Made by a program: the position numbers
Source of the DNA: Patescibacteria group bacterium
Lineage (GTDB): Bacteria; Patescibacteriota; Minisyncoccia; Portnoybacterales; GWB1-42-6
Reading direction: 5' to 3'
DNA: 64,000 nucleotides
Assembly (NCBI GenBank): GCA_022709865.1
Contig: JAKLIA010000001.1
Location: 37,593-101,592, forward strand
In this document: one piece after another, positions 3,001 through 9,000 of the stretch
How the letters are laid out: each line of letters starts with the position of its first letter
Numbering within the stretch: position 1 is the first letter of the stretch

Positions 3001-6000
3001 ATCGTTTTTATCTTAATCGCCATCTCTATCGGTGTCAACCTGTTTTTGGCGACGCCAATAAATAAGCCCCAAGGCGGAAAGGCCCGCCAGAAATAAAATA
3101 CCAACCAGCGCTAAATTATTATAACCGCTAGCCGAGTCTTTCGCTGCTGCGGCTAAAAGATTGGGCTGGGCTGTTTTGGGCGTGGCTAGCGGAGTGCTTT
3201 CGGGTGAAGCGCTGATTTGTGATGCTGTTTTTTGCTTAATCGCCGCAAGTGGGCTGGGAGCATTATTTGTTGCCGCGCTTTCTTCTAAGGCAGTTATTTT
3301 ATTAACAGAAACATTTTCAACAACTTCTTCGTTAACAGCAAAAAAAGATTTTTTATTGGCTTGCCCGGGAGTAGGCTGGTTAGTCCAAAGCCAGCCGCCA
3401 TCAAACTTGGCCACGGCTTGGCCTTGGGAGGCTTTGCTAAAAGAGACGGCGTGCACTATTTGGCCATCAGGCCAGAGCAGGCGCACTTTGTCGCCGTCGT
3501 TGTTTAAAGTATTTTTATTAAAAGTGATGACTAAAAATTGTCCAGCAGGGATAAAAGTATTGGCCGGAATGATTTGTGGATTAGTAGAATTATCTGCGTC
3601 GTCAATTTGCCAGCCGGATAAATTAATTGCACTGTTATCCAGATTGATTAATTCCACCCATTCTTTGGTTTCTTCTTCTGGCCACGGCACAAACTCATTT
3701 AAGAAGACTTGCTGGGAATATTGGTAATTTGTCGTGCTCGGGGTTGGCAAGGCCTCAGAAGTGCTTGTGGGAGCAGGGGAGTCGCTTGGCGCTAAGGTCT
3801 CGCTGTTATAATCTGTGCCGCCGCCAACACAGGCTAATCCTTGGTCTTTTATTTTTTGTAAAATTGTTGGCCCGATGCCTTTAACGCGCAGCAAGTCGTC
3901 TAATGAAGAATAAGGCCGGCCATCGATTATTCTTTGGGCATAGACAGCGCCAATCCCTTCAAGCTGGTCTAATTGGTCTAGCGAAGCTGTATTAATATCA
4001 ACTCTCTCTATCGCAAAGATAGGATAATAAAAAAATACGGCGGATAAGATTATCGCCGTAAGAATTAATCGCTTATTGTTTTTATGGCTGAGTAGCAAGG
4101 TTTTTTTCGTATTCTTGGTGGGTTTGCAGGATCTTTTCTTGGACCAGCGCGGCATTGGGGATTTGCTGAAAAACAACAGGATTAGCTTGCCCGCTAATTT
4201 TAATTTCCGCGTCGCCGTATTTAAAAAAGGAGGCTAAGGGCCCATGGGTTTTTATCGCCACGCCCTGGATATTATCAATCACATAGGTCATAACCAACCG
4301 CTTAAATAAACCCATTTGTTGGATGTCAATAATTTTCTGGTTGGTTAAAATCCATAAGTCCAAATACCAATCTACCCAAATTAAAACGCCATAGCAAAAA
4401 GAGATAAACCAAAAAATCAACGCAAAATACCAAAACACCGCCGAGAAGGCTTGCTGGTTAACAAAAGACAGGTCAAAAAAAGCTAAAGCAAAAGCCACAA
4501 CCCAGGGCACCAACGACACAGCCACAGCCTTTAAGAGCGAGACAGCCAGAAAGAACCAATGGCGCCGGGCCATTAAAACTATTTGTTCGTTTTGGGCTAA
4601 AGTGAAAGCTGGCATTATCATTTTTTGTCATTCTGAGGGAGCGTAGCGATCGAAGAATCTTTTTTAGATCCTTCGTTTCACTCAGGATGACGGAAATATA
4701 TTATAGTGTCTCCCATGGAATATTGGAAAAAATCCAATAACCCGCGAAGATAAAAATTATGGAAACAATCGCAATCGTCGCAATCGCTTTTTTGTGATTG
4801 TTGTTCGGCAATTGATATTGGAATAAATGATAAAACACCGCGCCGAGAAAGATAATGGCGAGGAGTAAAACGATTAGGCCGATAGTTAGAGAGGAAAGAA
4901 AAATCATTTAGATTAAAATTCGGGTTCAGTAGCTAATTTTTTCTTTAAATTCATCAAAAACTTTTTTATTGCTTCCCTTGGTAGAGTCTACAAGACTTTG
5001 AAAAATTTCTAATGCGGAGTTTATTTTTTGTTTATTTTTAATACCATCAGACAAACCATCATCAAGTTGCTTAGAGAAAGAGCTAAGGCTTTGAATTATA
5101 GGGTCCCATATTTTTATAGCCTCACTTAAAGTTAGGGTTGCCTTAAAACAAAGACAAAATAGATTTGGTAGTTTAATGCCAAGTATTGTTTCTAGGCTCC
5201 TAGCGGTAGCAGACAAAAATAAAACATTTGAACCTCTGTTTCTAAAAAACGATAATTGCTGTTCTTCTAGGCTTGTATTTTTTTCTTGTTTTTTCTTTTC
5301 AAAAAGTTCAAGCTTCTTTTTTTCTATGGATTTCATTAACGCATATACAAAATAAATATGCTTTGCGGTAGTTTTCTCATTAAAGAATTTACTATACAAT
5401 GAGTCAGATTCCCATATGTAGGTTTTTTTATTGTAGGCGGAGTCCGGGTCTCCGTGAAAGGCAGCTAAAATCTGCCCCGCCGTTATTGATGGTATTGAGC
5501 TGGCTCTTCTTTTAATAAATTCGGTGCCACCACCTCGCCGATTAAGATAGGTTGTATTTTTTATTTTTAGAAATTCCTTTACTAGGCGTTTTTGGATTGC
5601 GTCATTACTTCTAAAATCAGGCGCAGTTATTTTATTTTGACTATTGTTATATTTAACAATATTTTGGACCGTATTGGGATTGGTGCATTTAATGAATCGG
5701 ACTTGAACAAGGGCGCTGTCTTTTATATTTTGCTTGGCCGTGCCAATAGCTCCTACGGTCTGTGCGCCATTAACAATTGATAATCCATTTATTTCTACTT
5801 TTCTATTGCTTTTATCAGTTTTGTAGTTATTTACTAAGGCGGTAATACCGTTGTTAAAAACGCAAAAATGCGATGGGTCTGATAGGGCTGTCTTTTGAAT
5901 TCCCTTATTTATGTTTTTGTCTGTATTTCTGCTTCCAAGATATTCTCGAACGTTTGCGGAAAGCAGCTTTGTAGAACCATATTTTTTAAAGATCCCTTTT

Positions 6001-9000
6001 AGCCATTTTGCTGAGATTGTTGTTAGGTAGGCCGACCAATCGTCTCCCCTAATTTCAAGTCCGCCCTTTACGGGAATATAAAAAATATCAGTAATTAAGA
6101 TTGGACTTAATAACGATTGGTACCATTCTTCAAGGGTATTCTTTCCAACTTCTAACGATCTAATTTCTATGTTATGAGTTTTTCCTATTAATGCAATGAG
6201 AGCGCTATTTGTGGTGTGCTCGACGGTTTGAAGTTCGTTTGCGACATTTTTTGATTCATCTAAATTATGAACATACCATATGTGTAGGGTTTCTATTTGG
6301 CCATCTTTTAATACATTTTGTAATTCTTGGGCATGACTTTGTAAGCTCGGGGGTAATTTATTGGGTGGGGTAGAAATTAACGATGAAACCGCTGTGTTTA
6401 AATCGCTTGCTTTGTTTGCGGGAGCCTCTTTCTTGTCCTTCTCGCTTATATATGCTTGAGAGATTACGGCTACGTGATTTTCTGTGTCAATATAAACGAT
6501 GTCTGCTTTTTTATCGTTTGGGCCGGCTGTAATGGAACTTTGGGCTGTATTTTCGATGTCTTCAATTCCAAATTTAAGCTCTAAGGCAAACAAAGCAAGG
6601 GAATTTGTTTTAAACTTTTTTAAATCTTCCCTAGCTTCGTATGCTTGATGGTATGTTTTTGGGGGCATAAGCTTTTGTTCTGTTCTTTATTGATAATAGT
6701 AAGGAGATTTTTAAAATAGTTTCTCTCGCGGATTATTGCCATTATTTTTCCGCCACAATCAGCATTTCAAAATCTTGGGTAGTCAGCTTGTCGTTTCGGG
6801 AATAGGCGCCGAGCTTTGCCCCGAAGATTTCAACTTTTTTAAAGCCCAAAGATTTTAAAAGCCAGGTAATTTCCGGCGGCACATAATAGCGCTCGTTGCA
6901 TTTGAGTTCCTTTTTCTTTCCGTCATCGTCTTCAAAAGTCGCAATATTAGAATCTCGGAAAGTCATCAAGTCAAAAGAGTTTTTGCCGCAGGCGCTGGCG
7001 CCTTCTTTTTTATTTGATTCGTAAAACTCCTTAACGGAATTAAAAAGAGGGAAGAGGCCGTTTAGGGTGGTGAAAATAAACTTGCCCGGAGATTTTAAAG
7101 CGTTAGTCGCGCCGCGCAAAATCTCATAATTCATTTCATCTGTTTCCATTAAAGAGAAGCCGCCTTCGCAAAGCATTATGGCTAAGTCAAACTCGTTTTT
7201 GAAGGGGAGTTGGCGAGCGTCGTGTTTTTGAAAATCAATGGTCAGGTTCTGCTCTTTAGCTTTTTGGCGCGCTTGCTTAAGCTGGGATTCGGATAAATCC
7301 ACACCCACAACTTTATAACCGCGTTTGGTTAATTCTATCGCATGGCGGCCGGTGCCGCAGCCAATATCCAAGATTTTTGATTTTTTATTGGAAGCGATTT
7401 CTTTTTCAATAAAATCACACTCGCCCAGCGTGCCTTGGACATAAGGTTCCTCGTCATATTTTTTCCCGTAGTTTTCAAATAAAGATTCGTACCACTGTTT
7501 CATAAATATTTTTAGAGTAATTTTTCTTGATTTTGTTCCGGATATCTTATGCCTAAATGCTCATAGGCGCTTCTAGTGGCGACTCTGCCGCGCGGGGTGC
7601 GGCCGATAAAGCCCAGCTGCAATAAATAGGGCTCATAAACATCTTCGATTGTATCTTGCTCCTCATGGGTGGCAGCGGCTAAAGCTTGAAGCCCAACCGG
7701 GCCGCCGTCAAAGCGCTCAATAATATGGCGCAGGATTTGCCGGTCAACCGGTTCCAGCCCTAGCTGGTCAATTTCGAGCATCGCCAAAGCTTGTTTAGCC
7801 AAGTCCGCTGTTATTTTTCCATCGCCGCGCACTTGCGCAAAATCGCGCACGCGCTTGAGTAGGCGATTGGCCACGCGGGGAGTTGAGCGGGCGGAGCGTG
7901 CAATAACGCTAATGGCATCGAGTTCGGTTTCAATATTTAAAACTTTGGCTGAGCGCTGGATAATTTTGGCAATATCTTCGTGGCTATAAAAATCCAATCG
8001 GAAAGAAGCACCAAAGCGCGAGCGCATAGGGGAGGAAATTAAGCCGGGGCGGGTGGTGGCGGAAATTAAAGTGAACTTGGGCAGGTCCAGTTGCAGTGTC
8101 CGGGCGCTTGGCCCTTTGCCAATCACAATATCCAATTTAAAGTCTTCCATTGCCGGATAAAGCACTTCCTCGATTAACTTATTTAAGCGGTGAGATTCAT
8201 CAATGAATAAAATATCGCCGTCGCAAAGGTTAGTTAAAATTGAACCCAAATCTCCCACGCGCTCAATGGCCGGGCCGCTTGTCACTTTAATTCCCACGCC
8301 CATTTCTTTAGCAATAATATGGGCCAGGGTGGTTTTGCCAAGCCCCGCTGCGCCGCATAAGAGCACGTGCTCGATGGGTTCGCTTCGCCCTTTGGCGGCC
8401 GCGATCAAAATGCGCAGGTTTTCTTTGATTTTTTCCTGCCCTTGGTATTCGTTAAAACCCTGCGGCCGCAGGGTTAAGTCAATGCCATTGTCTTCTTCAT
8501 TTTGGAGGGGGGAGGTGAGCATCTTTTTGGGGGGCTTGACAAGGTTTCTAGCCCGTGCTAACATATCAAATCGTGCAGGCAAGCCCTTTTTAATCTGTAG
8601 GTGATGGGACCTTTTTTTATACTTGGTCTTGGCGGGGTTTTGTTTAAATATTTTGGATGTTCTGGCTTTGGCTGGAGCACTCCTTGGCAGAACTTTTAAC
8701 CTTCCCCCTGGTGGGAAGATATTACCTGCAGATTAAAGAAGGCTTGAAAATCCTCTGGCGCTTTTGCGCCCGGGGATTTTTTGTTTTCTTTATCTTTGCC
8801 CCACCACATCGTCTAATTCTTCAAAGGTGGTCTTTTTTTCTAAGATCTTTATCACGCCGTCTTGGTACATAGAAACGAAACCGGTTTTTTTCAGCATTTC
8901 CACAATTTCCGCGTGCGAGGGGGATTTAGCAATTAATTTTTCCAGTTCTTCATTAATGGGGATTATTTCAAACACGCCCACGCGGCCCTTATAGCCGGTG

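What the first reader, a model, noticed from the sequence alone, without database searches (positions are those of the whole stretch)
4926..6668. Solitary AT-rich AIPR-like abortive-infection gene
This 580 aa protein carries the NGAQT-type motif (LSIVNGAQTVGAIG) that I associate with AIPR N-terminal domains. It is encoded in a clearly AT-rich block between a small membrane-protein gene and a housekeeping SAM-MTase. AIPR proteins are usually embedded in R-M operons, but here none is adjacent. The C-terminal half (about 250 aa, Lys/Glu rich) is uncharacterised and could be a new effector or sensor domain.
Basis: partly seen in the sequence, partly recalled or inferred. Interest (0 to 1): 0.55.

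Follow-up and report, generated by a model that had tools for sequence, protein, structure and literature searches.

The report
Stand-alone AIPR/AbiU-type phage-defence gene
This is an ordinary, already annotated member of the AIPR (AbiU-type) family of candidate anti-phage genes, picked up by horizontal transfer into a housekeeping stretch of a Candidatus Portnoybacteria genome; its supposedly novel C-terminal half is just part of the family's standard architecture.

Summary
Window 4926-6668 (minus strand) is an intact 580-aa ORF containing LSIVNGAQTVGAIG. It is compositionally foreign (GC3 0.31; 44 of 50 long ORFs have GC3 >= 0.40). It is an AIPR protein (Pfam PF10592 E=6e-36; PADLOC AbiU E=4e-32; full-length PHROG 1841 E=3e-132), and NCBI already annotates this exact sequence as 'AIPR family protein'.

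- The Pfam AIPR domain covers residues 236-554, so the C-terminal half is not a new domain. It is conserved in all 120 aligned homologs.
- The region outside the Pfam model is the N-terminal ~235 aa. It is homologous (hhalign 97%, E=2e-11) to the Mrr-like D..D..QxK nuclease domain of canonical AIPRs.
- Being solitary is normal for this clade. Homologs sit alone among housekeeping genes, and in the gpA-gpQ defence hotspot of P2-like phages.
- The small membrane gene is conserved CPR backbone. The methyltransferase shows no link to AIPR.

One mildly new point: in this clade the nuclease-motif Lys is always replaced (Tyr in ~90%), and a clade-specific Lys86 is near-invariant.

The likely function is single-gene anti-phage defence acting on nucleic acid. 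The mechanism is unproven for the whole family. Interest is low.

The parts
4926..6668 (-). AIPR-family gene, 580 aa plus stop codon
   Evidence: ORF. Pfam PF10592 E=6.1e-36. PADLOC AbiU E=4.1e-32. phrog_1841 E=2.7e-132, full length. Identical to NCBI 'AIPR family protein [Candidatus Portnoybacteria bacterium]'.
5964..6668 (-). N-terminal alpha/beta domain (aa 1-235), outside the Pfam AIPR model; PD-(D/E)xK (Mrr-like) nuclease-derived
   Evidence: AF2 models have pLDDT 87. The best Foldseek PDB hits are nucleases but weak: CdiA-CT 4zqu E=9.7e-3 and EcoT38I 7edb E=4.6e-2. hhalign against canonical AIPR N-termini gives prob 97.3%, E=1.9e-11.
6450..6515 (-). Nuclease-type motif D52-K-K-x-D56 ... 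Q71-x-Y73, with Tyr where canonical AIPRs have the catalytic Lys
   Evidence: MAFFT, hmmalign and hhalign all place DDKKxD..AQxY on DxG(I/V)D..QxK. Position 73 is never Lys in 120 homologs or in 125 diverse representatives.
6396..6416 (-). Clade-specific motif N85-K86-A-S-D89-L-N91 at the start of helix 85-99; Lys86 is near-invariant and is a candidate relocated catalytic Lys
   Evidence: K86 is present in 120/120 homologs and 123/125 representatives. Canonical AIPRs have no Lys at this column. The spatial role of K86 is inferred, not shown.
5469..5963 (-). Central AIPR core (aa 236-400), carrying most of the invariant polar residues
   Evidence: The Pfam AIPR match starts at residue 236. Alignment A5 of 13 diverse AIPRs shows the invariant residues. 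R241, N272, N273, G274, N300, G301, T304, R324, N341, N342, Q344, N345, D351, R353, S354, R377, R378 and G379 are each 120/120.
5841..5855 (-). NNGIT motif (aa 272-276)
   Evidence: NNG is invariant across all AIPR subfamilies compared.
5757..5771 (-).
   Evidence: NGxQ(T/S) is invariant across all AIPR subfamilies compared.
4929..5468 (-). C-terminal all-helical domain (aa 401-580) with a charged helix at 445-475; part of the known family architecture
   Evidence: AF2 secondary structure. The Pfam AIPR match extends to residue 554 and PHROG 1841 to 559. Within-family conservation is 0.63 against 0.67-0.71 for the other domains, and there is no Rx4-6H motif.
6669..6770 (-). AT-rich upstream spacer with a sigma-70-like promoter match (TTGAAA-18-AATAAT, 6770..6741)
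   Evidence: Consensus scan only. Spacer GC is 0.30. This is not evidence of function.
6742..7503 (-). Class I SAM methyltransferase: extra relative to the CPR backbone, but not a detectable AIPR partner
   Evidence: Pfam Methyltransf_25/11/31. It has no match in any of the 80 RuvB-anchored loci, including the ~20 that share the backbone gene order. Relatives at 70-81% identity in 80 metagenome loci never lie next to ruvB or an AIPR gene. GC3 is host-like at 0.48.
4701..4907 (-). 68-aa two-TM gene: conserved CPR backbone, not part of the AIPR unit
   Evidence: A homologous 71-98-aa two-TM ORF lies between ruvB and the TM179 gene in all 20 CPR loci inspected, with shared motifs.

Best explanation
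The gene encodes a stand-alone AIPR (AbiU-class) protein. It was acquired by horizontal transfer and lies directly downstream of the ruvB-methyltransferase pair in a Candidatus Portnoybacteria (CPR) genome.

It has three domains:
1. An N-terminal restriction-endonuclease-like (Mrr-type PD-(D/E)xK-derived) domain.
2. The central AIPR core, with the invariant NNGIT and NGAQT motifs.
3. A C-terminal helical domain.

Most likely it works as a single-polypeptide sensor-effector against phages or other invading DNA. The core and helical domains would recognise an infection cue or foreign nucleic acid. The N-terminal domain would then bind or cut nucleic acid, blocking early phage gene expression. 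This would match the delayed phage transcription reported for lactococcal AbiU.

Shown here: family membership, domain layout, homology of the N-terminal domain to the D..D..QxK domain of other AIPRs, foreign composition, solitary context, and homologs in phage defence hotspots.

Inferred: anti-phage function in this host, nuclease activity, which domain senses and which acts, and whether the outcome is abortive.
For: Family membership:
- Pfam AIPR E=6e-36 over residues 236-554.
- PADLOC AbiU E=4e-32.
- PHROG 1841 'Abi alpha-like abortive infection', full length, E=3e-132.
- NCBI names the identical protein 'AIPR family protein'.

Horizontal acquisition:
- GC3 is 0.31, in the minority class of a bimodal distribution.
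- About 20 CPR relatives have ruvB followed by the TM68 and TM179 genes, with no AIPR or methyltransferase between them.
- Homologs at 48-74% identity occur in Chloroflexota, Omnitrophota, Bacteroidota and Methanophagales archaea.

Defence role:
- Homologs at 46.6% identity over 99% of the length sit between gpA and gpQ in Klebsiella P2-like phages. A more distant AIPR occupies the dinI-portal interval of Salmonella phage RE-2010. That locus is the experimentally defined P2 defence hotspot (PMC9122126).
- AbiU-type genes are found in both P2 phages and P4 satellites (PMC13586616).
- 119 plasmid records carry AIPR genes.
- Lactococcal AbiUi alone gives resistance and delays phage transcription (PMC13064643).

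Nuclease domain:
- Canonical AIPR N-termini share only D-G-D..Q-x-K as invariant residues.
- hhalign of the window clade's N-terminus against those gives 97.3%, E=1.9e-11.
- The top Foldseek hits are nucleases.
- The AlphaFold model of AbiUi resembles FokI, and AbiU-1 is placed in the PD-(D/E)XK superfamily (PMC13099982).
Against: - No member of this clade has been tested.
- The one single-gene AIPR cassette cloned from an E. coli P4 satellite (pFR77) is not among the seven systems that protected against eight coliphages.
- Lactococcal AbiU gives only a 10- to 100-fold drop in EOP.
- The window protein is only 27% identical to AbiU, over residues 214-452.
- The nuclease-motif Lys is replaced by Tyr throughout the clade, so the domain may not be a conventional nuclease.
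- All structural matches to nucleases are weak: none has E < 1e-3 and TM-scores are 0.2-0.3.
- No phage that infects this host is known.
Confidence: 0.7

Rival explanations
1. Methyltransferase and AIPR form a two-gene restriction-modification-like module: the methyltransferase marks self and AIPR attacks unmarked DNA.
For: Both genes are extra relative to the conserved CPR order ruvB-TM68-TM179. They are adjacent and on the same strand, 73 bp apart. AIPR genes are described as common in R-M operons (PMC2292703). The methyltransferase hits PADLOC mad2 at 6e-23.
Against: - The methyltransferase is a generic class I SAM enzyme (UbiG/CpaM-like). It has no (D/N/S)PP(Y/F) motif, and its DNA-methylase hits are only marginal.
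- The mad2 hit covers only the Rossmann-fold part of that profile.
- Its GC3 (0.48) is host-like, unlike the AIPR gene.
- In 80 loci, relatives at 70-81% identity never neighbour an AIPR gene.
- None of the AIPR homolog contexts has this methyltransferase.
Confidence: 0.07
2. The N-terminal nuclease-like domain is catalytically dead, and the protein is a nucleic-acid-binding sensor or regulator (in the way DndB is a regulator) rather than a cutter. Any defence would come from binding or blocking, or the gene gives the host no benefit and is merely a passenger.
For: The Lys of the QxK motif is lost in every member. pFR77 AIPR gave no protection. AbiU's reported phenotype is delayed transcription rather than DNA degradation. 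The literature links the AIPR core to DndB.
Against: D52, D56 and Q71 remain near-invariant over a deep clade, down to about 30% identity. A new near-invariant Lys86 lies next to the motif in sequence, which looks like active-site rewiring rather than decay. The ORF is intact and the whole length is under strong conservation.
Confidence: 0.2
3. AIPR together with the downstream 68-aa two-TM protein forms a sensor plus membrane-effector abortive-infection pair.
For: The gap is only 18 bp on the same strand. There are weak PADLOC hits to 2TM effector models (E=0.006).
Against: The small gene is conserved directly downstream of ruvB in all 20 CPR loci inspected, none of which has an AIPR gene. 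No AIPR homolog context has such a neighbour.
Confidence: 0.02

Closest known systems
AbiU (AbiUi/AbiU1) of Lactococcus lactis, the founding AIPR protein
   Same: Both match the same Pfam family (PF10592) and the same PADLOC AbiU model. Length is similar (580 vs 589 aa). Both have an N-terminal D..D..Q motif domain, a central NNGIT/NGxQT core and a helical tail. Both work, or are found, as a single gene.
   Different: Identity is only 27%, over residues 214-452. The AbiU HMM matches only residues 116-461 of the window protein. AbiU keeps the canonical QxK Lys, whereas the window clade has QxY plus Lys86. AbiU sits next to AbiUii on a plasmid, whereas this gene is chromosomal and alone.
AIPR genes in the gpA-gpQ defence hotspot of P2-like phages (Klebsiella Kapieceevirus prophages; PHROG 1841)
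   Same: They belong to the same clade: 46.6% identity over 99% of the length, the same QxY/K86 variant, 580 aa, and single-gene cargo.
   Different: They are carried by a temperate phage in Enterobacteriaceae. The window gene lies in a CPR chromosome with no phage, integrase, tRNA or flanking repeat nearby.
MzaE, the AIPR component of the five-gene MZA system
   Same: It shares the AIPR core (PADLOC MzaE E=3e-13, residues 214-375; NCBIfam NF041935 60 bits).
   Different: The score is far below the NCBIfam cutoff (60 vs 1050 bits). No MzaABCD genes are nearby. It is not MzaE.
DndB and DUF262/GmrSD (ParB-superfamily 'DGQHR/DGQQR' domains)
   Same: The literature places the AIPR core with DndB and COG1479 in the ParB superfamily (PMC3632139; HHpred 91% to DndB in PMC8546572). 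By eye, NGAQT after a beta-strand resembles DGQHR.
   Different: This was not reproduced here. hhalign of AIPR profiles against a BrxU-type DUF262 profile gives probability below 1%. There are no Pfam or NCBIfam hits to DndB, DUF262 or ParBc, and no ParB-like chain among the 50 best Foldseek matches listed.

Membership tests
AIPR (Pfam PF10592) | Score above the Pfam gathering threshold | tested here: met
   125.1 bits against a 25-bit cutoff, E=6.1e-36, residues 236-554 on profile positions 1-291 of 308. All 28 sampled homologs also match.
AIPR (Pfam PF10592) | Core motifs NNG(I/V)T and (I/V)(V/I)NGxQ(T/S) | tested here: met
   N272-N273-G274 and N300-G301-x-Q303-T304 are present. NNG and NGxQ are invariant across 13 diverse AIPRs and near-invariant (121-125 of 125) across diverse representatives.
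AIPR (Pfam PF10592) | N-terminal D..D..QxK (Mrr-like) nuclease domain, as in canonical members | tested here: inconclusive
   The domain is homologous (hhalign 97.3%, E=1.9e-11), and D52, D56 and Q71 are kept. The Lys is replaced by Tyr73. This feature lies outside the Pfam model, so it does not decide membership.
AbiU system (PADLOC / DefenseFinder sense) | Match to the AbiU HMM as a single-gene system | tested here: met
   PADLOC PDLC02357 E=4.1e-32, but the match is partial (residues 116-461 on profile 138-460 of 537). True lactococcal AbiU scores 1e-177 over its full length.
AbiU system (PADLOC / DefenseFinder sense) | Confers phage resistance and delays phage transcription | not testable with these tools
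   Known only for lactococcal AbiUi (PMC13064643). An E. coli P4 AIPR was cloned but is not among the protective systems.
MZA system (MzaE) | NCBIfam NF041935 score above cutoff, plus neighbouring MzaA-D genes | tested here: not met
   60 bits against a 1050-bit cutoff. The neighbours are ruvB, a methyltransferase and membrane genes.
R-M-linked AIPR (Iyer 2008 sense) | Encoded in an operon with restriction or modification genes | tested here: not met
   No R-M gene is adjacent. The nearest R-M island is about 35 kb away, at 41.7-45.5 kb. The adjacent methyltransferase is not a recognisable DNA methylase.
ParB/DndB/DUF262 superfamily | Detectable profile or fold similarity of the AIPR core to ParB-fold domains | tested here: not met
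HEPN | Rx4-6H motif in a helical domain, or a HEPN family match | tested here: not met
   There is no Rx4-6H motif anywhere in the protein and no HEPN Pfam hit.
PD-(D/E)xK nuclease superfamily | Restriction-endonuclease-like fold with a D...(D/E/Q)xK catalytic motif | tested here: inconclusive
   The best fold matches are nucleases, but they are weak (E 0.01-0.05, TM 0.2-0.3). The motif is D..D..QxY, not QxK. One canonical AIPR N-terminus gives a sub-threshold Mrr_cat hit (E=0.01).

The most novel reading that the evidence does not exclude
This gene belongs to a deep, widespread AIPR clade: about 150-275 clusters at 50% identity, found in bacteria, archaea and P2-like phages. In this clade the Mrr-type active site has been rewired. 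The QxK Lys is always lost (Tyr in ~90% of members), and a new near-invariant Lys86 appears on the following helix. This could mean a nuclease with a relocated Lys, or a different chemistry or role altogether, such as a Tyr-dependent covalent DNA intermediate or a binding-only sensor. I found no description of this variant in the papers searched.
Probability: 0.15. Interest if true: 0.5.

Novelty: new member of a known kind. Interest (0 to 1): 0.22.

Why it matters
It matters little as a discovery, because the gene is already annotated as AIPR and fits a well-populated family.

It has modest value in three ways:
1. It is a clean example of single-gene defence cargo dropped into the streamlined, near-origin housekeeping region of a CPR bacterium, and its boundaries can be set against a conserved backbone.
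2. It corrects the domain picture. The unmodelled part of these proteins is the N-terminal nuclease-like domain, not the C-terminus.
3. The clade-wide QxK-to-QxY change plus Lys86 gives a concrete mutational handle for the first biochemical study of AIPR proteins, whose mechanism remains unknown more than 20 years after AbiU was described.

Tried and rejected
- PDB sequence and profile searches with the full protein, the family profile and a central-domain profile gave only spurious hits: designed PPR repeats and influenza HA2.
- The ParB/DUF262 link was tested by building a BrxU-family profile from pEFER and running hhalign. No similarity was found. I could not obtain DndB sequences for a direct test.
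- The HEPN idea from Makarova 2012 was rejected. There is no Rx4-6H motif and no HEPN family hit.
- The 2TM-effector pairing was rejected by synteny.
- The methyltransferase partnership was rejected by context.
- A search for a close sister genome lacking the insertion failed. The best RuvB among GTDB representatives is only 66-67% identical, so the insertion is defined only against a distant CPR backbone.
- No flanking direct repeats, tRNA or integrase were found.
- The primary AbiU paper (PMC93294) is not held.
- BLAST alone could not align the N-termini of the different AIPR subfamilies. MAFFT, hmmalign and hhalign were needed.

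
Full report
**Observation.** Window 4926-6668 (minus strand) is an intact ATG-initiated ORF of 580 aa. The motif LSIVNGAQTVGAIG is residues 296-309. The gene has GC 0.355 and GC3 0.307, while its neighbours have GC 0.42-0.50 and GC3 0.44-0.56. Among the 50 long non-overlapping ORFs of the window, GC3 is bimodal. Forty-four have GC3 >= 0.40 and six have GC3 <= 0.31: this gene, four genes of an R-M island at 41.7-45.5 kb, and one orphan ORF. The AT-richness is therefore real and marks the gene as compositionally foreign. The same protein is encoded, 100% identical, on three independent assemblies of a Candidatus Portnoybacteria genome.

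**Family.** Pfam AIPR (PF10592) matches at E=6.1e-36, 125 bits against a cutoff of 25. PADLOC AbiU matches at 4.1e-32 and MzaE at 3e-13. NCBIfam MzaE reaches only 60 bits against a cutoff of 1050, so the protein is not MzaE. PHROG 1841 ('Abi alpha-like abortive infection mechanism') matches residues 4-559 to profile positions 6-565 of 567 at E=2.7e-132. The identical sequence is in NCBI as 'AIPR family protein'. The family call is correct and already on record.

**Where the domains are.** The Pfam match covers residues 236-554, so the AIPR model is the C-terminal 60% of the protein, not its N-terminus. The 120 best homologs are all about 575-600 aa and align end to end at 48-74% identity. The C-terminal third (401-580) is nearly as conserved within the family as the other two parts, with a majority fraction of 0.63 against 0.67 and 0.71. 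The 'Lys/Glu-rich' impression comes from one charged helix at 445-475. AlphaFold2 with the 120-sequence alignment gives a confident model (pLDDT 87, pTM 0.76) with three parts: an alpha/beta N-terminal domain (about 1-235), a mixed central domain (236-400) and a helical C-terminal domain.

**The N-terminal domain.** This is the part no Pfam model covers.
- Foldseek against PDB finds nothing significant. For the N-terminal domain alone (second model, pLDDT 86.7) the best hits are nucleases of the restriction-endonuclease fold: CdiA-CT 4zqu (E=9.7e-3), EcoT38I 7edb (E=4.6e-2) and, lower down, N.BspD6I.
- This agrees with the literature. The AlphaFold model of lactococcal AbiUi resembles FokI (PMC13064643), and AbiU-1 is placed in the PD-(D/E)XK superfamily (PMC13099982).
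- I fetched seven other AIPRs: Enterococcus, Aeromonas and Klebsiella plasmids, Subdoligranulum, Salmonella phage RE-2010, lactococcal AbiU, and the E. coli P4 cassette pFR77. The only invariant residues in their N-termini, apart from the start Met, are D-G-D...Q-x-K, a Mrr-type nuclease signature. One of them gives a sub-threshold Mrr_cat hit over that stretch (E=0.01).
- MAFFT, hmmalign and hhalign (97.3% probability, E=1.9e-11, 115 columns) all align the window family's 'TxGxDDKKxD...AVIAQxY' onto 'TDGxxDxG(I/V)D...(I/V)xQxK'.
- The N-terminal domain is therefore homologous to the canonical AIPR nuclease-like domain. Both Asp and the Gln are kept: D52 in 124, D56 in 123 and Q71 in 124 of the 125 diverse representatives that cover the site.
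- The catalytic Lys position is Tyr in 111 of 120 close homologs and 113 of 125 representatives, and it is never Lys.
- A clade-specific Lys86, in the motif NKASDLN at the start of the next helix, is present in 120/120 and 123/125.
- I could not inspect coordinates to see whether K86 reaches the site. The relocated-Lys reading is an inference.

**Context and island boundaries.** The gene lies in a housekeeping block about 8 kb from dnaA: DHH-pilB-ruvB-methyltransferase-AIPR-TM68-TM179-comEA/LTD-yebC-ruvC.
- No close sister genome was found. The best RuvB among GTDB representatives is 66-67% identical.
- About 20 CPR genomes keep the order DHH-pilB-ruvB-TM179-(comEA)-yebC-ruvC. None of the 80 loci has a match to the methyltransferase, the AIPR protein or (by tblastn) TM68.
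- Inspection of the ruvB-TM179 gap shows a 71-98-aa two-TM ORF in all 20 loci examined. It shares motifs with TM68 (FIVYHLxxY ... PW). TM68 is therefore backbone.
- The insertion relative to the backbone is methyltransferase + AIPR.
- The methyltransferase has host-like composition and is a generic class I SAM enzyme with no DNA-methylase motif. Its relatives at 70-81% identity in 80 metagenome loci never neighbour ruvB or an AIPR gene. I see no functional pairing.
- There are no flanking repeats, tRNA or integrase.
- A sigma-70-like promoter match lies in the AT-rich spacer upstream. It is a consensus match only.

**Is solitary unusual?** No.
- In four of the five homolog contexts examined, the gene is alone among unrelated housekeeping genes: next to a trp operon, next to BipA and a cation-efflux gene, and so on. 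Only one context is a conjugative/R-M setting, with TrbC, TraC, Dcm, Vsr, a GHKL ATPase and an Eco57I-type enzyme.
- In Klebsiella P2-like phages, the 46.6%-identical homolog is a single gene between the replication endonuclease gpA and the portal gpQ. Salmonella phage RE-2010 carries its AIPR between dinI and the portal gene.
- This is the P2 defence hotspot defined experimentally by Rousset et al. (PMC9122126). 'AIPR' alone is a recurrent single-gene cassette in E. coli P4 hotspots, and AbiU-type genes are reported in both P2 and P4 (PMC13586616).
- 119 plasmid records carry AIPR genes.
- The window does contain an R-M island about 35 kb away, with a C5 methylase, an R.HinP1I-type enzyme, Vsr, an unknown protein and a DUF262 protein.

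**Function and mechanism.** The best-supported reading is a horizontally acquired, single-gene, AbiU-class defence protein. By analogy, its central and C-terminal domains would sense infection or foreign nucleic acid, and its N-terminal nuclease-derived domain would act on nucleic acid. Experimental support for the family is thin. Lactococcal AbiUi alone gives a 10- to 100-fold drop in EOP and delays phage transcription. The single-gene AIPR from an E. coli P4 satellite was cloned but is not among the seven protective systems. The window protein is only 27% identical to AbiU over residues 214-452. With the Lys-to-Tyr change, a binding-only or non-canonical role is a serious rival. I put about 0.7 on 'stand-alone AIPR defence gene' and well under 0.5 on conventional nuclease chemistry.

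**Size of the family.** An exhaustive search of 1.84 billion cluster representatives gives 4,882 hits at E <= 1e-3, 1,883 at <= 1e-10 and 275 at <= 1e-30. Full-length matches extend down to about 30% identity. Homologs occur in bacteria, in archaea (Methanophagales) and in phages.

**Verdict.** This is a real gene, correctly recognised as AIPR and already annotated as such. Its solitary state and its C-terminal half are both ordinary for its clade. The only mildly new observation is the clade-wide rewiring of the nuclease motif. Interest is low.

Noticed in passing
window 41731-45490 (+): This is the lowest-GC block of the window (GC ~0.29-0.34, GC3 0.23-0.29). It is a compact defence island: a C5 DNA methylase (PF00145 E=2e-72), an R.HinP1I-type restriction endonuclease (PF11463 E=5e-85), Vsr, an unknown 202-aa protein, and a 333-aa GmrSD_N/DUF262 protein (PADLOC NsnA 2e-34, PD-T4-2_A 6e-22) with no recognisable C-terminal nuclease domain.
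   Followed up: partly
window 22209-22922 (+): A 238-aa ORF with the lowest GC3 in the window (0.227; GC 0.289). It has no Pfam or PADLOC match and is probably another horizontally acquired orphan gene.
   Followed up: partly
window 6742-7503 (-): A class I SAM methyltransferase sits 8 bp downstream of ruvB. It has no match in any of the 80 RuvB-anchored loci, including the ~20 that share the backbone gene order. Yet it has more than 480 metagenome relatives, the best 80 of which are 70-81% identical and lie in unrelated contexts. It is unusually well conserved and apparently mobile, and its substrate is unknown.
   Followed up: partly
window 4082-4907 (-); L010-L034: A conserved CPR gene pair lies directly downstream of ruvB in about 20 Patescibacteria genomes. 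It comprises a ~70-aa two-TM protein (motifs FIVYHLxxY and PW) and a ~180-aa membrane protein with a weak bacterial-PH-domain hit (motifs HRHWF and WIDYY). Its function is unknown, and its linkage to the ruvB / yebC-ruvC genes is striking.
   Followed up: partly
L004:1-13740: The closest AIPR homolog on a long contig (60% identity) lies inside a conjugative-element-like region. That region carries TrbC pilin, a TraC-like ATPase, a Dcm methylase, Vsr, a GHKL (HATPase_c_3, MORC-like) ATPase and an Eco57I-type N6-methylase/endonuclease. It is a plausible vehicle for spreading this clade.
   Followed up: no
L176:3763-4788: On Lactococcus plasmid pG322, AbiU proper is followed by a 341-aa gene. By position this is presumably AbiUii, but it has no PADLOC match.
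   Followed up: no
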